IMG/VR virus record: IMGVR_UViG_3300024264_000009
DNA length: 64,000 nucleotides
Origin: an uncultured virus (IMG/VR IMGVR_UViG_3300024264_000009)
Taxonomy: Duplodnaviria > Heunggongvirae > Uroviricota > Caudoviricetes
Reading direction: 5' to 3' (one strand)
Position numbers and translations under genes: made by a program. Within the stretch, counting starts at the first letter, position 1; every line of letters begins with the position of its first letter. Under the pieces are notes generated by a model. The model was not told where the DNA came from. It ran no database searches and saw nothing but the letters and a program-made list of their open reading frames with translations. Shown piece after piece: positions 51,134-59,263 of the stretch.

Positions 51134-51841
51134 CTACTCGTCTGTAGTGGTTTGGTTTTGTATTAGTTTTCCATTTTCATCAGTATGAAAAGTAAGTTCA
51201 TCAGGGTGGAACCCTTGCAACTGAGAATGTCTTGAGTTGTTTGAAAGGAAATTCATATTCATATTGAATGATATACTATATCTATCTTTTTGAGTAAGAT
51301 TGGGTTCAACCATATGCATTAATGCACTTGGAAATAGAAATAAATGACCAGTTCTTGGTGCAAGTTTCCAGTTCTGTGCATCTCTAGGAGAATATGGAAA
51401 GTCTGAAACTACTTTACAGTCTGTATCAATAGCCATAAAATTACCTTCATCACCATCTGCTTTTATATAAAACACACCACTATACCAACAACCATTATGT
51501 AAGTGTGGTGCATTCCATGCTGTATTATCATTAATGTTTGCCCATGCATTACCTATTGATAATTGAAGTTCTGTTGGACTATGTCCTGTATAACTCAATA
51601 ATTCAGTATCAAAAGTATTCTTAATTGTTCTTATTGCTTTAGAGAAGGTTGGATTTCTTTCTACACCATCATTAGACTGCCAACCAGTATACTGATTAGA
51701 GACTTGTCTACCCTTCGGGTCTTTCTTTCTCATACTATCCATAGTATTTGCTAACATATCCATATAATCTTGTGTTAATACACCTTCGTCTAAAAGGTTT
51801 CTTTCAATACATGCATATGGAAATAGTAATCTAATCGCCAT
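51134..51841 (-). CDS. 2OG-Fe(II) oxygenase-like protein (TIGR02466-type)
   Basis: GWQS, WANIN..PHLH..WYSGVFYI, LFPS.L.H.V.PN...RYSISFN. Confidence 0.88.
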   Translation of the reverse strand: MAIRLLFPYACIERNLLDEGVLTQDYMDMLANTMDSMRKKDPKGRQVSNQYTGWQSNDGVERNPTFSKAIRTIKNTFDTELLSYTGHSPTELQLSIGNAWANINDNTAWNAPHLHNGCWYSGVFYIKADGDEGNFMAIDTDCKVVSDFPYSPRDAQNWKLAPRTGHLFLFPSALMHMVEPNLTQKDRYSISFNMNMNFLSNNSRHSQLQGFHPDELTFHTDENGKLIQNQTTTDE

Positions 51842-52733
51842 CTTTATCTCCTATAGGTAATTCTAGTTGTATTTCGGGTGAGTCTTCACTGACATGATAA
51901 GGACACTCGGGTGGTGGACTCTCTTCTTTAAAGTTTTTACCCTTACCTGTATGTAGTTTCCCACCTCTATATCCACCTAATGCAAATTCTTCACTTCTTG
52001 CTTCATTAGAAGTTGATGGGTCTCTTGAAAACTCGTCCATAGTTTTTTGACGACCTTCATTTGCAGTTAGATAACTTCTATTCTTTGTCCAGTCTCCACT
52101 TCCGTTTACTAGGTAAGTTGCATTCCACTCCTCTCTTTTAAATGGTATTACTTGAACTAAAGGAGTTCCTTTCTTTATAACAAACGAATGACTGACACGT
52201 GGATAAAATATAATTTGTGCATTGTCATAGTTTGCATTAAATTTATCCGTGTCAATAATTCCCTGCCATGTTGCAAAGTATTTATTTTGAAATAAAAATG
52301 GGTCTAGATACATAGTGGAATATCCAGGCGGTGTAGTTATGTTCCATGCATTTCTAAACTTAAATGCACTCCTTACGGGTGCTTCATCATCAGGAAGATA
52401 TTGAAATGCATATCCCATCTGCCATGAGGGGTGATGAGGAGAAGAAGTTTCCCAACCATCTCCAAATTCTGATGAACTAACATATTGACTGTCATCATTA
52501 TCATCTATGTGACCATTTTTTACAATCATATCTCGATTTGCACACAAATACCAACCACTTTTTAACCAATCGTCCATGGCTGGACATGCACGTATAGTAG
52601 TTCCCATGATTCCACGAGTATATTCATTGAACTTCATATTTTTCCACCAATCAGGTGTGACAGATTTTGCTAATACAGGTTTAGTGTCTCTTAAAGTCTG
52701 TTCATTAAATGTGTTGAATTCTATTGTGGGCAT
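51831..52733 (-). CDS. Hypothetical protein (DUF6065-like / dUTPase-fold-like)
   Basis: TIRACPAMDD..GW, KF.N.W.I.TPPGYS, GIIDTD, GTPLVQVIPFKRE. Confidence 0.75.
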   Translation of the reverse strand: MPTIEFNTFNEQTLRDTKPVLAKSVTPDWWKNMKFNEYTRGIMGTTIRACPAMDDWLKSGWYLCANRDMIVKNGHIDDNDDSQYVSSSEFGDGWETSSPHHPSWQMGYAFQYLPDDEAPVRSAFKFRNAWNITTPPGYSTMYLDPFLFQNKYFATWQGIIDTDKFNANYDNAQIIFYPRVSHSFVIKKGTPLVQVIPFKREEWNATYLVNGSGDWTKNRSYLTANEGRQKTMDEFSRDPSTSNEARSEEFALGGYRGGKLHTGKGKNFKEESPPPECPYHVSEDSPEIQLELPIGDKDGD

Positions 52734-53458
52734 TGTTTAAACCATTCCTTATCTTCTACAAGTCTAATTTCATCACCTCTGATTACTATTGACTTCCTAT
52801 CTATATATCGTGCTTCGGGTGTGGGTGCATCTGCACCATGTGGTATTCTTCCGTCAAATACAACAAGTCTATTTGGAACAAATTCTATTTCTGCAATTTG
52901 GTGATTCTTAATATGGTCGTTCCTTCCATGTAAACCCTGTTGCATTTCGTCATATATTCTCAAAGGGCCTCCCCAATGTTTTGACCAAAACGTATTAGTG
53001 TAATATAGAAATGATAGATTCCATTCATCTTCATCTGAACAATCTGAGTGTGTTGTTCCATGTAATCCTTGTGTCTGAGAGTTTAAACCCATATATTGAA
53101 ATCTTTCCCATGCAAAACCAAAATCAGTTTGTAGTTTTTTATCTAAAAATCTTGCTACTAGTTTGGGTGCAGAATTGTGGTAATCTGCAATATCACCTGC
53201 GAAATTAGGATATGTATATTTTGGACTTCTTTCAAGTGCAGAGAGTAGTGTTCCACCCCAAAATTGATGATGTGATAAACCTGTAGGACTTGTCCCTCTT
53301 ACTTCATTCCTTTTTGCCCAAATGTTAGAATTAGCAATTGATTTATCGACCCAATGATGTAGTTGGACTGGCAACCAATTATCAATTATGTGAATGTCTT
53401 TAAGGGGGAATCCTATATCTTTTAACTTAAAGGACTCATCATGATAAATGAGTTCCAT
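52721..53458 (-). CDS. 2OG-Fe(II) oxygenase
   Basis: HSD, LYYTN..W...WGG, PNRLVVFDG.IPH...RKSI. Confidence 0.88.
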   Translation of the reverse strand: MELIYHDESFKLKDIGFPLKDIHIIDNWLPVQLHHWVDKSIANSNIWAKRNEVRGTSPTGLSHHQFWGGTLLSALERSPKYTYPNFAGDIADYHNSAPKLVARFLDKKLQTDFGFAWERFQYMGLNSQTQGLHGTTHSDCSDEDEWNLSFLYYTNTFWSKHWGGPLRIYDEMQQGLHGRNDHIKNHQIAEIEFVPNRLVVFDGRIPHGADAPTPEARYIDRKSIVIRGDEIRLVEDKEWFKQCPQ

Positions 53459-53461
53459 ACA

Positions 53462-54025
53462 TTAACCTGTTCTAGAGTCAGGCTGAACTAGTGGTTCGGG
53501 AATTACAGATAAGTATTCTTCGTATTGTTTTAGAGTATCTTCTCTTGTGGACATTATCTCTTGAGCAATCTGACTAAAACATGAGTATGCAGTATCACAA
53601 TATTCTAAAACTCTTCTTGCATCTGCACGTCTAGGGTGATTTGAACCTTCTCTTCCAGCGTATGTTGCATAATATAAATCAATCATACCATACAACTCTG
53701 AAGTCGCTTGAGTATATTGACCAATTGTTTGTTCTAGTCTGTTAACATATTGTGTATTTAAGTTATATCCTAAAGGTGGTTCTGAATTTTCTATGTATAA
53801 TTCAATACTACGTTTGTCTTCATCAGTTAGTATGGATTTTTCTTGACCTTCGAAATCTCTAATTTCGTCATTCCATTTTAATATTTTAATTTCAATATCA
53901 TCATAGACAAGAACCTCATAATCAAATCCTAGTTCGGGTTGGTCTACATTTTCATATTCCCATTCCAAACCATTTGGTTTTCTAATTATTAGTTTTCCGC
54001 TTTCTGTGTAAATTAATGCATTCAT
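53462..54025 (-). CDS. Hypothetical protein
   Basis: GAGG RBS before ATG 54025; lies within the enzyme cassette. Confidence 0.75.
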   Translation of the reverse strand: MNALIYTESGKLIIRKPNGLEWEYENVDQPELGFDYEVLVYDDIEIKILKWNDEIRDFEGQEKSILTDEDKRSIELYIENSEPPLGYNLNTQYVNRLEQTIGQYTQATSELYGMIDLYYATYAGREGSNHPRRADARRVLEYCDTAYSCFSQIAQEIMSTREDTLKQYEEYLSVIPEPLVQPDSRTG

Positions 54026-54060
54026 TTGTTTGTTCCTCTCTCCATTATATAATAGAATTG

Positions 54061-55623
54061 TTATTTTTGCAAGATGTTTTTTGCTTTTATCCAATCATCT
54101 AGATTATTTATGTTGGAATAATCCATGTCTTTTACCCATGGGCCTCCCCTTGTATAGTGAATACCATGGTAATCCCATTTTTCATCAGGGTTATCATACC
54201 CTTCGGTAAATACATACTTTTCGGGTATCGGACTAATCTTATCAGTCCATTCGAATTGGTGTAGTTGTTTTCCTGTCCATGTATTGACAGCTTCGGGTGT
54301 TAACTTTTTACAGTCTTCATGACTATTATTAAAAATCATAAGACTCGACCATAGTTTTTTAGGATAATCTATATTGACCTCACCATTAAACTTAGTTGTA
54401 TCATGTTCTATTTGTTTATACTGAATACATGCAACTGCATCATCTAAATTCAGATAATAGAATAAAGGTAGAATATTGTTTCTCCATATGAAATCATTAT
54501 CAATAAAGATACTATATCCTTCATAGTTTTCTAAATGTGGTATTAGGAATCTACTGTAAGTAAATTCAGTAGACTGATTTGCATACTCCCTATTATAGTC
54601 GGGAAGTTTAGAAATGTCAAGGAATTTGATTTCGGGTTCCCAATGAAGTTCTTTTTGGTATTGACCCATACTTTTAGACAATGAATGTAGTATTGAATTT
54701 TTGTTGACCTCATGTAGGTCTCCGTGATTAGAATCATATCCTATGTAAATATTAAGGGGTTTACCTTTTGATTGAAGTGTAGCCTTTTTACTATGTGCAT
54801 AAACCTCTTCTCTAAAACCTAACTCCATTAAGTTATGGTTGTATTCTAAATTTCCATTACAGAAAGTTATTGATAGACTAGGGTGACTTACATGTTCTTT
54901 TTTATCTTCTAGTTTTTTTCTCCAAAACTCTAACGCTTCGTCACAAGTTAAAGGTGTTATATCAAAGATATCATGTATATCTGTTGCAAATATTTCAAAG
55001 TTGGGGTCTTCCAATTCCTCAAAAACTTTAGACCTAATAGTGCCTGGGTGTATTCTAAAACCAAATCTATTATCAACTTTATATGTAGTCCCTTGTATTG
55101 GGTGTCTTAAACCTTCTTCTTGAATACTCTGAATTAACCAATGTGCTTTTGCACTATGATAATACATAGAGTTTATTTGGATTTCAGACCACATATCTGA
55201 TTTCTGTTCTTCTGTAAGTTCTACATAATCTCTTATATCTGCATATTCACCATCTGCAGTCTTACAATCCATTTGACCTACTTGTCTACCCTCTCTTTCT
55301 ATTGCTGTATATACGTCAGGTAAAAACTTGTGATAGTGAACGGATTCTAGTCCAGCACCTTGGAAACCTAAAAAGGTTTTATTCTTTCGAAGTTCTAGTA
55401 TATCACCCCATTTTATAATTTTTGTGGGTGGAATAATGTTTTCAAAAATATATTTGAATGATTTGTATGCGTCTGATTCTTTATCTATATTATAGATATC
55501 TTGGAAAACACCAATATTGTAATCTTCCTTTGCAATAAGGTCTCGGAAATCCATTTCCTTTAAGTTCCAATCTTCGGGTTTAATTTCGTTGATAACGTCT
55601 GAATAGTATTTCAAGTATTTCAT
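54061..55623 (-). CDS. Fusion of a ParB/Srx-like N-terminal region and a GT-A glycosyltransferase (CDI/GT8-like)
   Basis: LIQSIQEEGLRHPI...IHPG..R; C-terminal IYIGYD, STEFTYSRFLIP, FIDND (DxD), WSSLMIFN, LHQFEW, HYTRGGPW. Confidence 0.82.
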   Translation of the reverse strand: MKYLKYYSDVINEIKPEDWNLKEMDFRDLIAKEDYNIGVFQDIYNIDKESDAYKSFKYIFENIIPPTKIIKWGDILELRKNKTFLGFQGAGLESVHYHKFLPDVYTAIEREGRQVGQMDCKTADGEYADIRDYVELTEEQKSDMWSEIQINSMYYHSAKAHWLIQSIQEEGLRHPIQGTTYKVDNRFGFRIHPGTIRSKVFEELEDPNFEIFATDIHDIFDITPLTCDEALEFWRKKLEDKKEHVSHPSLSITFCNGNLEYNHNLMELGFREEVYAHSKKATLQSKGKPLNIYIGYDSNHGDLHEVNKNSILHSLSKSMGQYQKELHWEPEIKFLDISKLPDYNREYANQSTEFTYSRFLIPHLENYEGYSIFIDNDFIWRNNILPLFYYLNLDDAVACIQYKQIEHDTTKFNGEVNIDYPKKLWSSLMIFNNSHEDCKKLTPEAVNTWTGKQLHQFEWTDKISPIPEKYVFTEGYDNPDEKWDYHGIHYTRGGPWVKDMDYSNINNLDDWIKAKNILQK

Positions 55624-55641
55624 AGTATATATTTAGGACAT

Positions 55642-55671
55642 AAAAAAAGGGGTCTGCAGACCCCCTTTTTT
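55642..55671. terminator. Bidirectional intrinsic terminator
   Basis: AAAAAAAGGGGTCTGCAGACCCCCTTTTTT. Confidence 0.85.
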
Positions 55672-55691: not shown

Positions 55692-56561
55692 TTAGTAGAT
55701 TCCTGGCGCATCTCCTGGCCCATCGGGTGTTGGGAAGCCACCACCTCCACCACCACCAGTTTGGAAGAAGTAAACTCCAGGCTGTCTATGGTTATATGTG
55801 AACGGATTCCTTGCTGGAACTGGTTGTCTAGCATTAGCAATATAAGGCACACGATATGAAAACGGATTCCTTGCTGGGACTGGTTGTCTAGCACTAGCAA
55901 TATATGGAACCCTATATGTAAATGGGTTTCTTGCTGGAACTGGTTGTCTTATATTCGCAGGATACCTTGCATTATATGTAAATGGAGTCTGTCCATTACT
56001 AGGACTCTGACCATTCGCAGGATACCTAGCATCATATGTAAATGGAGACTGTTTATTCCTTTGGTTAGGTTGTTGAGCATTTACAGGACTTCTGTATGTA
56101 AATGGAGACCTATATTGGTATGTAGAAGGTTGTCTTGCATTACTAGGGTTCTGATAAGTGAACGGACTTCTATATTGGTATGTAGAAGGTTGTCTAGCAT
56201 TACTAGGGTTCTGATAAGTGAACGGACTTCTATGTTGATAAGTAGAAGGTTGTCTAGCATTCGCTTGATAAGTTGTCTGTGCATTCGCAATATAAGGTGT
56301 CTGTGCATTCCTAATAGAAGGATTCTGTGCATTCGCAGTATAAGGTGTTTGTGCATTTGCAATATAAGGTGTTTGTGCATTTGCAATATAAGGATAAGGA
56401 ATTTGAGTTAATTCTTGTCCTGACGCATTATTCCACCCCGAAGGTGTCTTAACATAAATTTGGTCAACTGCACTCCATGAAGAAGAACCAGTTTTGACCC
56501 ATGCACCTTGAGTTGAATTCCAACCTGAAGGTGTTTTTACTTTTTGATTTCCTGTTGCCAT
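55692..56561 (-). CDS. Repeat protein B: Trp-motif N-terminus, 206-aa Pro-segmented tract, Gly-rich tip; probable fibre appendage
   Basis: VKTPSGW/WVKTG/YVKTPSGW, then 8-aa and 20-aa repeats; lies downstream of the tail-fibre genes. Confidence 0.85.
   Translation of the reverse strand: MATGNQKVKTPSGWNSTQGAWVKTGSSSWSAVDQIYVKTPSGWNNASGQELTQIPYPYIANAQTPYIANAQTPYTANAQNPSIRNAQTPYIANAQTTYQANARQPSTYQHRSPFTYQNPSNARQPSTYQYRSPFTYQNPSNARQPSTYQYRSPFTYRSPVNAQQPNQRNKQSPFTYDARYPANGQSPSNGQTPFTYNARYPANIRQPVPARNPFTYRVPYIASARQPVPARNPFSYRVPYIANARQPVPARNPFTYNHRQPGVYFFQTGGGGGGGFPTPDGPGDAPGIY
55782..56399 (-). repeat. 618-bp coding tandem-repeat tract of protein B (24-bp and 60-bp units)
   Basis: For example ggacttctatattggtatgtagaaggttgtc recurs at 60-bp period; 29 segments. 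Confidence 0.92.
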
Positions 56562-56571
56562 ATCTTATTCC

Positions 56572-57273
56572 TTAACTAATTGGGGTTGCAGGCCATTGCT
56601 GTGATACAACTCCGTCCCATCTAGCTTCGGGTGTTTGTCCCTGTCTTGCATATGTAGAAGGTTGTTGATTAGTATACGTTGACGGCTGTTGGTTAATATA
56701 AATTGACGGACTTCTATGTTGATAAGTAGAAGGCTGTCTATTCTGATATGTAGAAGGCTGTTGATTAGTATACGTAAATGGAGTCTGTGCATTCCTAATA
56801 TTAGGTTCTTGACCATTAACTGGATTTCTATATGTGAATGGTGTTTGTGCATTCCTAATGTTAGGTTCTTGACCATTAACTGGGTTTCTATATGTGAATG
56901 GTGTTTGTGCATTCCTAATATTAGGTTCTTGTGCAGAAACAGGATTTCTATACGTAAATGGAGACCTATGTGAATAAATTATAGGTTGTCTAGCATTAGC
57001 AATATATGGAACCCTATATGTGAATGGGTTTCTATATGTGTATGGTTGTCTTGCATTAGCAATATAAGGCACACGATATGTGAACGGACTCTGATACGTA
57101 AAAGGTTGCTGAGCATTTGCTGGATATCTTGCATTATACGTAAATGGATTCTGATACGTAAATGGTTGTTGAGCACTTGCTGGATACCTTGCACTATACG
57201 TAAATGGACTCTGAAACGTAAAAGGTTGCTGAGCATTTGATATATAGGGATATTGTCTATAACCTGTTGCCAT
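56572..57273 (-). CDS. Repeat protein A: 206-aa Pro-segmented tract with Trp-containing C-terminus
   Basis: PFTY/PSTY/NAQ repeats ending in ARWDGVVSQQWP. Confidence 0.85.
   Translation of the reverse strand: MATGYRQYPYISNAQQPFTFQSPFTYSARYPASAQQPFTYQNPFTYNARYPANAQQPFTYQSPFTYRVPYIANARQPYTYRNPFTYRVPYIANARQPIIYSHRSPFTYRNPVSAQEPNIRNAQTPFTYRNPVNGQEPNIRNAQTPFTYRNPVNGQEPNIRNAQTPFTYTNQQPSTYQNRQPSTYQHRSPSIYINQQPSTYTNQQPSTYARQGQTPEARWDGVVSQQWPATPIS
56632..57249 (-). repeat. 618-bp coding tandem-repeat tract of protein A (60-bp and 24-bp units)
   Basis: tgtgcattcctaat..taggttcttg recurs at 60-bp period; 29 segments. Confidence 0.92.
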
Positions 57274-57329: not shown

Positions 57330-59003
57330 TTAGGAGTATAGAACCCATAAATCACCAACTGCACCATCTCCACTTGAAGGAGCTGAAGTTGATTGATAAA
57401 CGTTTCTTGCAGTTCCACCAGCATTCGTTGCATTGGTGATTGTTATCGCACCTGAGGCAATAGTTCCTAATGATACATTTGAACCACTTTCATATTTTGT
57501 GTCCAATGCAGTCTGTAATCCATCAACATTTGCAATGATATGATTATGTGAATCATCTGCGATTGTTGCTGTGATTGAGATATCTGCAGAACCATTGAAT
57601 GAAGCAGAACCTGAAAGGTCTCCACCCAAACTAATTGTTCTTGCAGTTTCTAAGACTGTTGCTGAACCAGCATTTCCTGAAGTTGTTCCAGTGACATTAC
57701 CAGTTAAGTTTCCTTCAAAAGTCGCTGCAACAAAAGTTTCTGAACCAACAGACCATTTGTCGTTTGTTTCGTCCCAAAGAAGTGTCTTAGCAGCAGAACC
57801 ACCACGAGTCACACTGATACCAGTGTCTTCTGTTGGTGAACCTGAAGTGAAATTACTGTTTAATGCAATAATATTATCTGCAAGTGATATAGTTTCTGAA
57901 TTAACTGTAGTAGTTGTTCCTGAAACTGTTAAGTTTCCAGTGATTGCAACATCGTCATTTAATGTGACATTACCTGTTCCATTTCCTGTTAACACTAAGT
58001 TAGTGTCTGTGCTTCTTGATTCAATTGCATCTACATCAATCGAGTTTGAGAATTGAATTGCATTTCCATCTGATGAAGATATAGCATTTGATGCTTGTAT
58101 CTGCATAGGTGCTTTAATTTGTATATTACCTGTTCCAGTTGCATCTAATTCGATATCACCTGAACCACCTGTTTGAAGTGATACGTTTTGGTCATCGTCT
58201 GCAGAAATAGTAATTGTTCCTGAATTATCTGAAACCACTTGTTGTCCATTAACATATAATGAACCTGGCCCAACATAGATATCTCTCCATTGTTTACTTG
58301 CAGAACCTAAGTCGTAAGTAATGTCTGTAGTTGGAACAATATTTGCATCTACAGTTGCTAGTGAAGTCATCACTCTTGCATCTGTGAAATAGAGGTTATT
58401 TGAACCTTCAGCAGTTTCGTCTGTTGTTTGTCCATCGACATATGCTTTTACTGATTGTTGTGATGGGAGTTTAGTAGCACTATCAGATGACATATTATCT
58501 TCGTCAATTAATGCATTTGTTATTCTCGCATCTGCTCTTGCATCTGTGTAATAAAGGTTTGAACTTCCTTCTGATAATGAATCTGTATCTGCAGCTGCGA
58601 TTCTTGCGTCTGCTCTTGCATCAGTATAATACTGATTTGTTGAACCTTCTGATAATGCATCTGTATCGAATGAAGAAAGACTTACTGTAAAGTCTATAGT
58701 TCCGTCTCCGTCTTCGTATGCAACTGTAATACCTGATTCGGTATTACCTGACATCATTCCACCAACAATGTCTTGTATTTCTTCTGTTGTTTTTCCTGTT
58801 GATGAGATTGTAATTGTATCAGCAGTGTCATCATAAGTCACAGTCGTTGAACCTGACCCCTGAATTATTCCACCGATTTTATCTGCGATTGCTTCTTGAA
58901 CCGCTGCACCTACTCCACCTGCGGCAATATTACCACTGGAGTCGATTACCTCTACACCACCAACGGATAAACCATTTTTAATATTAAAATTCTTTGCTGT
59001 CAT
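57330..59003 (-). CDS. Tail fibre protein
   Basis: S/T/G/D-rich; TDxLSEGSxNxYYTDARA repeats; GNLTVSGTTTTVNS; C-terminal P..GDG.VGDLW. Confidence 0.85.
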   Translation of the reverse strand: MTAKNFNIKNGLSVGGVEVIDSSGNIAAGGVGAAVQEAIADKIGGIIQGSGSTTVTYDDTADTITISSTGKTTEEIQDIVGGMMSGNTESGITVAYEDGDGTIDFTVSLSSFDTDALSEGSTNQYYTDARADARIAAADTDSLSEGSSNLYYTDARADARITNALIDEDNMSSDSATKLPSQQSVKAYVDGQTTDETAEGSNNLYFTDARVMTSLATVDANIVPTTDITYDLGSASKQWRDIYVGPGSLYVNGQQVVSDNSGTITISADDDQNVSLQTGGSGDIELDATGTGNIQIKAPMQIQASNAISSSDGNAIQFSNSIDVDAIESRSTDTNLVLTGNGTGNVTLNDDVAITGNLTVSGTTTTVNSETISLADNIIALNSNFTSGSPTEDTGISVTRGGSAAKTLLWDETNDKWSVGSETFVAATFEGNLTGNVTGTTSGNAGSATVLETARTISLGGDLSGSASFNGSADISITATIADDSHNHIIANVDGLQTALDTKYESGSNVSLGTIASGAITITNATNAGGTARNVYQSTSAPSSGDGAVGDLWVLYS

Positions 59004-59263
59004 TAGAATGTTCCTCCATCTAATTGTGGTAATGATAACTCACCATTTGATGAGTTGTAGTTTAAATTTGTTTCCCCACTTGCAAGACTTATAGCACCCC
59101 TTGCAAGAGAGTTTGAAAAGTATTGATTCACCGAACCTTCTGCAAGATTATCAGTGTCTAGTAATGATAATGCACTAGCTGCTAATTTACCAGCACTAGA
59201 TATGATTTCAGTAGTTCCTACTGTTAAACCATACTCAATTACGAATGTATTTTGTGTTGCCAT
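59003..59263 (-). CDS. Small fibre-associated protein
   Basis: F.IEYGL.V N-terminus, TDNLAEGS repeat, DGGTF C-terminus. Confidence 0.75.
   Translation of the reverse strand: MATQNTFVIEYGLTVGTTEIISSAGKLAASALSLLDTDNLAEGSVNQYFSNSLARGAISLASGETNLNYNSSNGELSLPQLDGGTF

What the first reader, a model, noticed from the sequence alone, without database searches (positions are those of the whole stretch)
55692..57273. Two adjacent repeat proteins whose segment patterns are exact mirror images: candidate antiparallel protein duplex
Seen: cutting each protein before Pro gives a 206-aa tract of 29 segments in both. Protein A (57273-56572, aa 9-214) has lengths 8,6,8,6,6,8,6,6,6,8,6,6,8,8,6,6,8,6,6,8,6,6,8,8,8,8,8,8,10. 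Protein B (56561-55692, aa 55-260) has 10,8,8,8,8,8,8,6,6,8,6,6,8,6,6,8,8,6,6,8,6,6,6,8,6,6,8,6,8, the exact reverse, irregularities included. This parse counts PVPARN as one 6-mer and PYPYIANAQT as one 10-mer, and accepts one Thr-for-Pro start in B. Both genes are on the same strand and each segment reads N to C, so this is not a DNA inversion. Inference: A and B zip together antiparallel and in register as a long beta-ribbon or filament, with the aperiodic 6/8 pattern fixing the register. All spacings are even, as expected for beta strands; the length would be roughly 65-70 nm if fully extended. I do not know of a described phage appendage built this way.
Basis: partly seen in the sequence, partly recalled or inferred. 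Interest (0 to 1): 0.95.

Follow-up and report, generated by a model that had tools for sequence, protein, structure and literature searches.

The report
Mirror-coded two-protein phage fibre
Two neighbouring genes of an uncultured marine T4-like phage encode repeat proteins that match segment for segment when one is read backwards, and related phages change both genes together, so the two chains most likely lie head-to-tail as one long thin fibre of a design not found in print.

Summary
Protein A aa 9-214 and protein B aa 55-260 are 206-aa tracts of 29 proline-started segments. Their lengths are exact reverses of each other.

It is far beyond chance and it generalises:
- All 55 distinct A/B gene pairs (74 viral loci plus the window) beat every one of 2000 segment shuffles. 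They cover 43 architectures, with tracts of 164-532 aa.
- Insertions and deletions are compensated in both genes.
- Segments are also complementary in type: aromatic "xTY" faces "xNA/AR". Only 11 of 1983 segment pairs are small/small.
- Proline spacing is essentially always even, with 2 odd of 4522. This fits unbroken beta strands.
- A second paralogous pair (C/D) obeys the rule in 12 of 13 pairs and also occurs as natural single-chain fusions.

Best reading: an antiparallel, in-register, two-chain beta shaft behind the last tail-fibre gene.

Binding itself is not shown. The complex predictor was unavailable, and AlphaFold2 left the tract of a fused homologue unmodelled.

No description turned up in five literature searches. 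Earlier notes of this scan report the same design on other DNA.

The parts
56572..57273 (-). Gene A, 233 aa: 8-aa N-terminus, 206-aa tract, 19-aa Trp-rich C-terminal tail
   Evidence: ORF; translation and segments; tail motif (ARQGQT PEARWDG..QQWPATPIS) conserved in the A partner of 74 loci
56632..57249 (-). Tract of A (aa 9-214): 29 Pro-started segments of 6, 8 or 10 residues
   Evidence: my coordinate arithmetic from the start at 57273
56575..56631 (-). C-terminal tail of A (aa 215-233, PEARWDGVVSQQWPATPIS). In the antiparallel register it lies opposite B aa ~36-54; proposed half of the 'clasp'
   Evidence: constant offset in 52 of 55 pairs; alignment printed; the clasp role is inferred
56562..56571 (-). 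10-nt spacer between the stop of A and the start of B; an AAGGA Shine-Dalgarno-like word overlaps the stop of A
   Evidence: sequence read
55692..56561 (-). Gene B, 289 aa: 54-aa conserved N-terminal domain, 206-aa tract, 29-aa aromatic/poly-Gly tail
56400..56561 (-). N-terminal domain of B (aa 1-54, two KTPSGWN motifs): highly conserved although the tract varies greatly; proposed other half of the clasp and attachment end
   Evidence: mean column identity 84% in 25 diverse B proteins; 47 cluster representatives at E<=1e-3 among 1.84 billion
55782..56399 (-). Tract of B (aa 55-260): the mirror image of A's tract
55695..55781 (-). C-terminal tail of B (PGVYFFQTGGGGGGGFPTPDGPGDAPGIY). In relatives the poly-Gly is followed by a Hint/intein-like domain or by a ~150-aa domain
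55649..55664 (.). GC-rich palindromic hairpin flanked by T/A runs, 28 nt after the stop of B: terminator-like on both strands
   Evidence: listed for the + strand; minus-strand reading GGGGGTCTGCAGACCCC+TTTTTTT
57330..59003 (-). Upstream fibre-like gene (557 aa) ending in the motif NVYQSTSAPSSGDGAVGDLWVLYS; precedes the pair in relatives as well
   Evidence: PHROG tail-fibre and structural-protein hits; an upstream ORF with this C-terminal motif in 70 of 77 loci

Best explanation
A and B are the two chains of one extended, antiparallel, in-register hetero-duplex. It most likely forms the beta-strand shaft of a thin accessory fibre in the phage's host-recognition gene cluster.

Shown:
- The two tracts are equal in length.
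- Their Pro positions coincide when one chain is reversed.
- Each segment faces a segment of equal length and, as a rule, of the opposite type.
- Relatives keep all of this through matched insertions and deletions.

Inferred:
- The conserved N-terminal domain of B and the Trp-rich C-terminal tail of A form a clasp that sets the register.
- From the clasp the chains zip as beta strands. Pro sits at the sites whose NH points away from the partner. Aromatic residues of one chain sit beside Ala or Gly of the other. Ile faces Arg and Thr faces Gln or Arg.
- The aperiodic 6/8/10 pattern makes any other register mismatched.
- One face of the ribbon is aromatic/Ala, so several duplexes probably bundle, for example three as a six-stranded needle.
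- The clasp end docks on the conserved C-terminus of the preceding fibre protein. The far end carries B's C-terminus, which is a short Gly-rich tail here and a self-cleaving Hint-like domain or another ~150-aa domain in relatives.
- Length is set genetically by segment number, about 70 nm here if fully extended.
For: Mirror rule:
- In the window, 29 of A's 32 Pro face a Pro of B at one antiparallel offset. The parallel best is 19 and the shuffle maximum is 19.
- In 55 of 55 distinct pairs, 0 of 2000 shuffles reach the observed value.
- On average 89% of A's Pro are matched with the cognate B, against 50% with non-cognate B. The cognate B is the best or joint best partner for 48 of 55 A proteins.
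- There are 43 architectures with tracts of 164-532 aa.
- The register offset is 33-36 in 52 of 55 pairs.

Compensated indels in close relatives:
- 24 aa missing in both genes in L008.
- 16 aa missing in both in L010 and L011.
- 20 aa missing in both in L012 and L014.

Complementarity:
- Of 1983 aligned segment pairs, 1633 are aromatic/non-aromatic, 339 are aromatic/aromatic and only 11 are non-aromatic/non-aromatic. The residue pair tables are symmetric between the chains (Y:A/G, I:R, T:Q/R, F:Q, N:S, H:R).
- In the window, 27 of 28 Pro-bounded pairs are complementary.
- The I:R count peaks at the Pro-Pro register in 51 of 55 pairs and the T:Q/R count in 55 of 55.

Beta-strand signature:
- Odd Pro spacings number 0 of 2047 matched spacings, 2 of 2158 in A tracts and 0 of 2364 in B tracts.
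- All 35 aromatic residues of A's tract and all 31 of B's lie on the parity opposite to Pro.

Independent paralogue:
- C/D pairs in sister phages obey the rule in 12 of 13 distinct pairs.
- C/D also occurs as single chains with both end motifs: 11 loci and 10 of 230 proteins. Their two tracts are in hairpin register.
- AlphaFold2 of one fusion gives strands only for the N-terminal strand (5-9) and the C-terminal domain (448-480), with block pLDDT 61-73. I read this to mean that the two ends pair with each other.

Context:
- The window is a T4-like structural region.
- The pair sits directly behind a fibre gene with an invariant C-terminal motif in 70 of 77 loci.
- A terminator-like hairpin follows B.
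- The pair lies between the fibre genes and the neck genes. In pelagimyophages that is the position of the 'host recognition cluster' (passages of PMC7029224).
Against: - No direct evidence of binding, of beta structure or of presence in virions.
- AlphaFold2 of the natural single-chain homologue left the whole tract unmodelled: mean pLDDT 36, with residues 10-442 below 50.
- The aromatic:small count peaks two residues off the Pro-Pro register in 53 of 55 pairs, with nearly equal values. Residue-level pairing is therefore fixed only to within about 2 residues, and 'Tyr pairs with Ala' is a simplification.
- 339 of 1983 segment pairs are aromatic/aromatic, so the type rule is 'never small/small' rather than strict complementarity.
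- Four distinct pairs (L007, L041, L050, L069) have one uncompensated indel of 18-88 aa, and one C/D pair (L127) fails the shuffle test at 125 of 2000. Each of the four has a sibling locus with a perfect match, so repeat collapse in metagenome assembly is possible but unproven.
- Both tracts are strongly basic, net +14 and +20. That would disfavour pairing unless it is offset by the Arg:Ile/His/Tyr contacts or by a polyanionic partner.
- No cultured phage with the pair was found.
Confidence: 0.65

Rival explanations
1. The two chains do not touch each other directly. Each lies, in opposite direction, along a third aperiodic template such as the trimeric shaft of the preceding fibre protein, and the mirror pattern reflects that shared template.
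For: The pair always follows a fibre gene with a conserved C-terminus (70 of 77 loci). The ribbon has one aromatic face that needs a partner.
Against: The type and residue complementarity between A and B, with a pair table that is symmetric between the chains, is not expected if each chain only reads a template. Identical A/B pairs occur behind fibre ORFs of different length (541 versus 654 aa in L052 and L053). The fibre would also have to co-vary across 43 architectures.
Confidence: 0.08
2. The chains form a two-chain beta-solenoid, an intertwined double-stranded beta helix. Each Pro-bounded segment is one side of a coil (6+6+8 = 20 residues per turn) rather than part of a straight two-stranded ribbon.
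For: Stretches of regular 6-6-8 periodicity. Pro at segment starts could mark corners. Antiparallel stacking of coils would also need mirrored corner positions.
Against: Each coil would have to match both the coil above and the coil below, which needs a periodic pattern. The patterns are aperiodic: runs of six 8-mers, phase slips, and 10- and 18-residue units. The strict even parity of Pro over up to 532 residues fits uninterrupted strands better than corners.
Confidence: 0.1
3. The mirror is a by-product of chance, of repeat evolution or of nucleic-acid symmetry (inverted duplication, mRNA pairing), with no meaning at protein level.
For: Both genes are tandem-repeat genes built from shared unit types. 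The parallel and self comparisons already give 18-20 of 32 matches through periodicity alone.
Against: 0 of 2000 shuffles reach the observed match in 55 of 55 pairs. Both genes are on the same strand and have no long inverted repeats. Gene conversion between same-strand genes would give parallel, not mirrored, similarity. The second family C/D shows the same rule.
Confidence: 0.02
4. A and B pair as described, but the product is not a virion fibre. It could be a non-structural scaffold, ruler or assembly chaperone, or a substrate of the neighbouring glycosyltransferase-like and 2OG-Fe(II) oxygenase genes that acts on the host surface.
For: No PHROG or structural family matches A or B. Enzyme genes follow directly. 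The window's B has no recognisable tip domain.
Against: The pair sits inside the fibre-to-neck structural block behind a fibre gene. In relatives the far end carries variable domains: several unrelated tail families in class C, one of which folds as a beta sandwich with pLDDT 85. That pattern is typical of receptor-binding tips.
Confidence: 0.12

Closest known systems
Needle domain of the T4 long-tail-fibre tip protein gp37
   Same: An elongated fibre element built of long antiparallel beta strands. [quoted passage not shown] It belongs to a myophage fibre, and three A/B duplexes could give a comparable six-stranded needle.
   Different: From my own knowledge, not tested here: in gp37 each of three identical chains folds back on itself, the needle is short (about 15 nm), and it is held by His-x-His metal sites. 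Here there are two different chains with no turn, tracts of 164-532 residues, a proline punctuation and a type code. Profiles of A and B found no gp37 chain among solved structures; the only hits were two unrelated chains at E 0.028 and 0.91.
Heterodimeric and antiparallel coiled coils (leucine zippers, SMC/Rad50 arms)
   Same: They work alike in principle. Two chains, or two halves of one chain, are held in a defined register by a repeating sequence code, and length is set by repeat number. The split (A/B, C/D) and fused (Cn+Dc) forms recall the SMC arms that fold back on themselves (my own knowledge).
   Different: Pro every 6-10 residues rules out alpha helices. The periodicity is 2 residues, not a heptad. 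The register is marked by an aperiodic order of units.
Stalk of streptococcal antigen I/II adhesins
   Same: A long thin stalk made by two different repeat regions running antiparallel and intertwined, with a globular adhesive domain at the far end (recalled, not tested).
   Different: There the stalk is one chain, with an alanine-rich alpha helix wound against a polyproline-II helix. Here there are two chains, both with alternating beta-type patterns and both carrying Pro at the same parity.
Phage fibres and tailspikes with a C-terminal self-cleaving intramolecular chaperone domain (endosialidase, T5 pb1 type)
   Same: Relatives of B carry a self-processing domain at the C-terminus, directly after poly-Gly (10 of 11 tested have Hint-superfamily hits). 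This suggests an assembly aid that is removed after the shaft has formed.
   Different: The domain is of the Hint/intein type, not the S74 peptidase type (the comparison is from my own knowledge). The window's B has none, and cleavage has not been shown.

Membership tests
T4 gp37-type beta needle | Sequence relationship to gp37 tip/needle chains among solved structures | tested here: not met
   Profiles of A (A1) and B (A2) against all PDB chains at E<=1 found only two unrelated chains, at E 0.028 and 0.91
T4 gp37-type beta needle | Homotrimer in which each chain folds back, giving six antiparallel strands with metal-binding His-x-His motifs | not testable with these tools
   The complex predictor was unavailable. 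By eye I saw no His-x-His in the tracts of A or B (2 His each, in YQHRS or YSHRS units)
Hint / intein-like self-processing domain (Pfam PF14890, PF01079, PF14623) | Hint fold after the shaft: Cys at the N-terminal junction after Gly, His-Asn at the end | tested here: not met
   The window's B ends 29 aa after the tract with no such domain. Among relatives, 10 of 11 tested have Hint-family hits at E<=1e-4, and 2 reach Pfam's curated cut-off
Pfam PF10511 Cementoin (trappin transglutaminase-substrate repeats) | Score above the curated cut-off | tested here: met
   A aa 111-137 scores 30.8 bits against a cut-off of 27. B scores nothing
Pfam PF10511 Cementoin (trappin transglutaminase-substrate repeats) | Gln and Lys donor/acceptor hexapeptide repeats (GQDPVK type, recalled) | tested here: not met
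   A's tract has 0 Lys and B's has 1. I take the hit to reflect the shared Pro/Gln/Val hexapeptide composition
Collagen-like or polyproline-II fibres | Three-residue periodicity (Gly-X-Y or PPII) | tested here: not met
   Pro spacings are 6, 8, 10 and other even numbers, with 2 odd of 4522. Spacings of 8 and 10 are not multiples of 3. Gly is rare, 3 and 2 residues in the two tracts
Phage tail-fibre families in PHROGs | Profile match to an annotated fibre family | tested here: not met
   No PHROG at E<=1e-3 for A or B. The upstream 557-aa gene does match fibre and structural PHROGs

The most novel reading that the evidence does not exclude
A/B (and C/D) define a new class of fibrous protein: a sequence-coded two-chain antiparallel beta duplex. 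A small set of 6-, 8- and 10-residue units pairs with complementary units of the other chain, somewhat as bases pair in a nucleic-acid helix. The aperiodic order of units fixes the register. Evolution keeps the duplex intact by compensatory indels and by swapping unit types between the chains. If so, the code would be readable and re-writable, a natural template for designing beta-strand rods of set length.
Probability: 0.5. Interest if true: 0.95.

Novelty: categorically new. Interest (0 to 1): 0.9.

Why it matters
Known protein fibres rest on a few principles: coiled coil, collagen triple helix, beta helix, triple beta spiral and cross-beta.

A long two-chain antiparallel beta duplex, held in register by complementary units, would be another principle. 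It would come with dozens of natural variants that already work as a covariation data set. That data set gives which residue faces which, what mismatches are tolerated, and how length changes.

The hypothesis is directly testable with two small genes. It offers a design grammar for rigid rods of chosen length. It also points to an unrecognised appendage in abundant marine myophages related to those of SAR11 and OM43 bacteria, placed in the genome region that decides host range.

Finally, it shows that compensatory change between two proteins can be read at the level of whole repeat units, as in RNA helices.

Tried and rejected
- AlphaFold2 of a natural single-chain C-D fusion (L100, 491 aa, 11-sequence alignment): mean pLDDT 36. 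The tract was not modelled, so this gives no verdict on the duplex.
- AlphaFold2 of the class-C tip domain (L081:4706-5224): confident at pLDDT 85, with 11 strands and one short helix. Foldseek against the PDB gave no hit at E<=1e-3. The wide VIA search gave a best Z of 4.9 (CfaE fimbrial adhesin), which is within the noise range the tool names. No fold assignment results.
- ESM Atlas on the tail of L023's B: no usable hit.
- tblastn of A and B against 50,697 phage records: no match. BLAST's low-complexity filter may hide the tracts. B's N-terminal domain is not low in complexity.
- Phage C48C1, which has a homologue of the fibre gene, goes straight on to the neck genes with no A/B pair.
- The window's own assembly is not held. 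The nearest record, G001 (19 kb), had no class-C match.
- No natural B-A fusion among 230 family proteins.
- Pfam on weak multi-repeat hits to B's N-terminal profile gave nothing coherent.
- DNA palindrome or mRNA pairing between the genes: rejected.
- I first took the Tyr:Ala pairing as the core of the code. One search shows it is not sharper than a register shifted by two residues, so I describe it only as aromatic next to small.
- Literature: five searches, of which I saw only the listings, found no description. The passages of PMC7029224 that I read describe the hypervariable host-recognition cluster but not these repeats. Its supplements were not opened.
Full report
**1. The observation**

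The minus strand carries two ORFs separated by 10 nt. A is 57273-56572 (233 aa) and B is 56561-55692 (289 aa).

A aa 9-214 and B aa 55-260 are each 206 residues in 29 segments of 6, 8 or 10, and one list is the exact reverse of the other.

Relatives justify the three parsing choices:
- TYQANARQ is PYIANARQ in L006 and L007.
- PVPARN is PNSARN, PVAFRS or PVAYRS elsewhere.
- The 10-mer PYPYIANAQT always faces a 10-mer PxTYARQGxT.

A parse-free test convolves the Pro positions of A and B. It finds one antiparallel offset at which 29 of A's 32 Pro face a Pro of B. The other three Pro lie in A's non-repeat tail. The best parallel offset gives 19, A with A 18, and B with B 20. In 2000 shuffles of B's segment order the mean was 11.9 and the maximum 19.

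Only three short inverted DNA repeats (12-13 nt) occur in 55692-57273, and just one of them (13 nt, 85% complementary) joins the two genes. The mirror is therefore a protein-level property.

**2. Complementarity beyond length**

In the Pro-Pro register, 27 of the window's 28 Pro-bounded segment pairs put a segment with an aromatic residue at position 4 (PFTYRN, PSTYQHRS and the like) opposite one without (PVNAQQ, PNIRNAQT, PYIANARQ and the like). The 28th is the 10-mer pair.

All 35 aromatic residues of A's tract and all 31 of B's lie on the residue parity opposite to Pro. The Pro parity carries Pro, Gln, Thr, Arg, Asn and Ile.

**3. Relatives**

A scan of IMG/VR with B found 302 stretches encoding relatives, and the best 80 loci were kept.
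- 77 of the 80 hold exactly two adjacent repeat ORFs. The other three are cut by a contig end.
- In 74 loci one ORF has A's C-terminal motif and the other has B's N-terminal motif. In the remaining three the partner is truncated.
- With the window this gives 75 pairs, 55 of them distinct. Gene order is A-B in 9 and B-A in 46.

Results across the 55 distinct pairs:
- All 55 exceed every one of 2000 shuffles.
- 95% of A's tract Pro face a Pro of B.
- There are 43 architectures with tracts of 164-532 aa.
- The offset minus the length of A is 33-36 in 52 of 55. The register is thus anchored where A's C-terminal tail meets B's N-terminal domain.
- The cognate B is the best or joint best partner for 48 of 55 A proteins. 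Mean matched fraction is 0.89 cognate against 0.50 non-cognate.

Close relatives show compensated indels at mirrored places: 24 aa in both genes in L008, 16 aa in L010 and L011, and 20 aa in L012 and L014.

More distant pairs have entirely different orders, for example 10,8,10,8,6,6,8,10,8,8,8,8... in L015. By my reading segments of that pair still mirror exactly. Unit types are swapped between the chains relative to the window.

**4. The pairing table**

Over 1983 aligned segment pairs (923 of 8, 766 of 6, 274 of 10, 17 of 4 and 3 of 12 residues) the types are:

| A type / B type | Count |
|---|---|
| aromatic / non-aromatic | 920 |
| non-aromatic / aromatic | 713 |
| aromatic / aromatic | 339 |
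| non-aromatic / non-aromatic | 11 |

The position-by-position tables are symmetric between the chains: Y:A/G, I:R, T:Q/R, F:Q, N:S, H:R and N:N.

The I:R count peaks at the Pro-Pro register in 51 of 55 pairs and the T:Q/R count in 55 of 55. The aromatic:small count peaks two residues away, with nearly equal values. So the small residue lies between two aromatic residues of the partner, and the residue register is fixed only to about 2.

These signals are not fully independent of Pro, because each sits at a fixed place in its unit.

**5. Parity**

Every matched Pro-Pro spacing is even (0 odd of 2047). Consecutive Pro spacings are odd in 2 of 2158 cases in A tracts and 0 of 2364 in B tracts.

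A two-residue periodicity kept over up to 532 residues is what an unbroken beta strand gives. It is not what a helix or a polyproline-II chain gives.

From general knowledge of antiparallel sheets: residues directly opposite each other are alternately hydrogen-bonded and non-hydrogen-bonded pairs. Pro, which lacks an NH, fits the non-bonded sites of a two-stranded ribbon. Pro facing Pro at even spacing is exactly that arrangement. This step is inference.

**6. Exceptions**

L007, L041, L050 and L069 each need two registers, which means one uncompensated indel of 18-88 aa. Each has a sibling locus in which the same A or B is perfectly matched, so repeat collapse in assembly is plausible but untested.

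L014, L040, the window and L001 miss being 'best partner' by one Pro.

**7. A second system and natural fusions**

Sister phages, sometimes on the same contigs, carry another adjacent pair.
- C has the N-terminus MADEIYINTG, then a tract, then a variable C-terminal domain.
- D has a tract and then a C-terminal domain of the type ..AKVKGVFVND..EVYVND..EKIHQ.

12 of 13 distinct C/D pairs beat all 2000 shuffles in the antiparallel test. L127 does not, at 125 of 2000.

Eleven loci and 10 of 230 family proteins are single chains with C's N-terminus and D's C-terminus. In L100 the two tracts are in hairpin register over about residues 15-165.

This is a Rosetta-stone argument that the two tracts belong side by side and antiparallel. 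No B-A fusion was found.

**8. Structure prediction**

The complex predictor was unavailable.

AlphaFold2 of the fusion L100 gave mean pLDDT 36. Only strand 5-9 and strands 448-480 were assigned, with block pLDDT 61-73. An isolated strand cannot be assigned as a strand, so the N-terminal strand must pair with the C-terminal domain in the model. That brings the chain ends together. It says nothing about the tract.

The class-C tip domain folds confidently (pLDDT 85) as a beta sandwich without a clear relative: Foldseek gave nothing at E<=1e-3 and the best VIA Z was 4.9. Class-C tails fall into at least six unrelated sequence groups, as receptor-binding tips often do.

**9. Context**

The window is a T4-like structural and replication region with portal, major head protein, sheath, tube, terminase and neck genes. 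GC content is 36%. Its major head protein is 66% identical to those of Methylophilales phage Melnitz and Pelagibacter phage HTVC008M.

The pair follows a 557-aa fibre-like gene (PHROG fibre and structural hits). An upstream ORF ending in the same C-terminal motif, N[VIM][YHF]Q[SN]TS.P...[DQ]G[AQ]VGD[LM]W[IV][LY]Y[SA], precedes the pair in 70 of 77 loci.

Downstream of the pair lie:
- a terminator-like hairpin;
- a glycosyltransferase-like gene;
- endonuclease V and a 2OG-Fe(II) oxygenase;
- the neck genes.

This is the position that a paper on pelagimyophages calls the hypervariable host recognition cluster (passages of PMC7029224). Phage C48C1 has the fibre homologue but no A/B pair.

B's N-terminal 54 residues are highly conserved (84% mean column identity). 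A profile of that domain found 47 cluster representatives at E<=1e-3 among 1.84 billion.

After the tract, B ends in one of three ways among the 55 pairs:

| B tail | Pairs |
|---|---|
| short aromatic/poly-Gly tail (the window's type) | 31 |
| Hint/intein-like domain after Gly-Gly-Gly-Cys | 12 |
| another long domain | 12 |

Of 11 tails tested with Pfam, 10 have Hint-family hits and 2 reach the curated cut-off.

**10. Known families**

- A and B match no PHROG.
- Neither has a relative among solved structures.
- The only Pfam hit is Cementoin, at 30.8 bits on A. I take it as compositional, because the tracts hold almost no Lys.
- All database members that carry a name are 'hypothetical protein' from marine metagenomes.
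- Homologues number 110 of 410 candidates at similar length and 271 of 710 longer.
- Five literature searches, seen as listings only, found no description.

The closest structural idea is the six-stranded antiparallel beta needle of the T4 gp37 tip (passage of PMC7291167). The closest in working principle are register-coded coiled coils.

**11. Earlier notes of this scan**

I looked these up only. They show that the same design was reported on other DNA: 22 findings in at least 13 genomes, one of them marked as 'what was seen stands' on a later check. They agree with my reading. The gp37 comparison came from them. The counts above are my own.

**12. Verdict**

Binding, beta conformation, oligomeric state and virion location remain to be shown.

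Noticed in passing
window 51134-55623 (minus strand): Directly downstream of the pair lie a 520-aa protein whose C-terminal half resembles phage glycosyltransferases, a 210-aa ORF, endonuclease V, a phrog_7084 protein and a 2OG-Fe(II) oxygenase. Enzymes of these kinds could modify Pro-, Thr- or Tyr-rich repeat proteins, but nothing here shows that they do.
   Followed up: partly
L081-L136 (IMG/VR contigs of sister phages): A second mirror-coded pair, C/D, with a different clasp: the N-terminus MADEIYINTG of C with a C-terminal KVKGVFVND..EVYVND..EKIHQ domain of D. It also occurs as single-chain fusions. Proteins with C's N-terminus and A's C-terminal tail (P0018 type) suggest that the end modules can be recombined.
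   Followed up: partly
relatives of B, e.g. L015:4001-5302, L029:4001-5296: A Hint/intein-like domain follows poly-Gly at the C-terminus (GGGG|CF..GT ... HN). It is followed by a few residues that, in the examples read, do not begin with Cys, Ser or Thr. It would therefore cleave rather than splice. Its position next to A's N-terminus in the duplex raises the question of whether it ligates the two chains.
   Followed up: partly
window 59003-59263 (minus strand): An 86-aa ORF directly upstream of the fibre gene starts with the same kind of N-terminal motif as the fibre proteins (MATQNTFVIEYGLTVG.. versus MTAKNFNIKNGLSVG..). It may be a short fibre-base module or a remnant.
   Followed up: no
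window 55884-56411 (+), 56716-56973 (+), 56986-57240 (+): Long stop-free frames run antisense to both repeat genes (175, 85 and 84 aa). I take them to be a by-product of the repetitive codon composition, not genes.
   Followed up: no
L126:3071-4840: One B homologue is interrupted by an in-frame stop and continues in frame for about 300 residues. It also holds 18-residue units (PNIRRTPAPYPYIANAQE) opposite PSTYATQGITQTTYQHRS in its partner, which extends the unit vocabulary.
   Followed up: no
window 57330-57404 and the ends of the upstream ORFs in L001-L080: The last 24 residues of the preceding fibre protein are nearly invariant in 70 loci, although the fibre ORFs range from 155 to 968 aa. 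This is a candidate docking site for the A/B clasp.
   Followed up: partly
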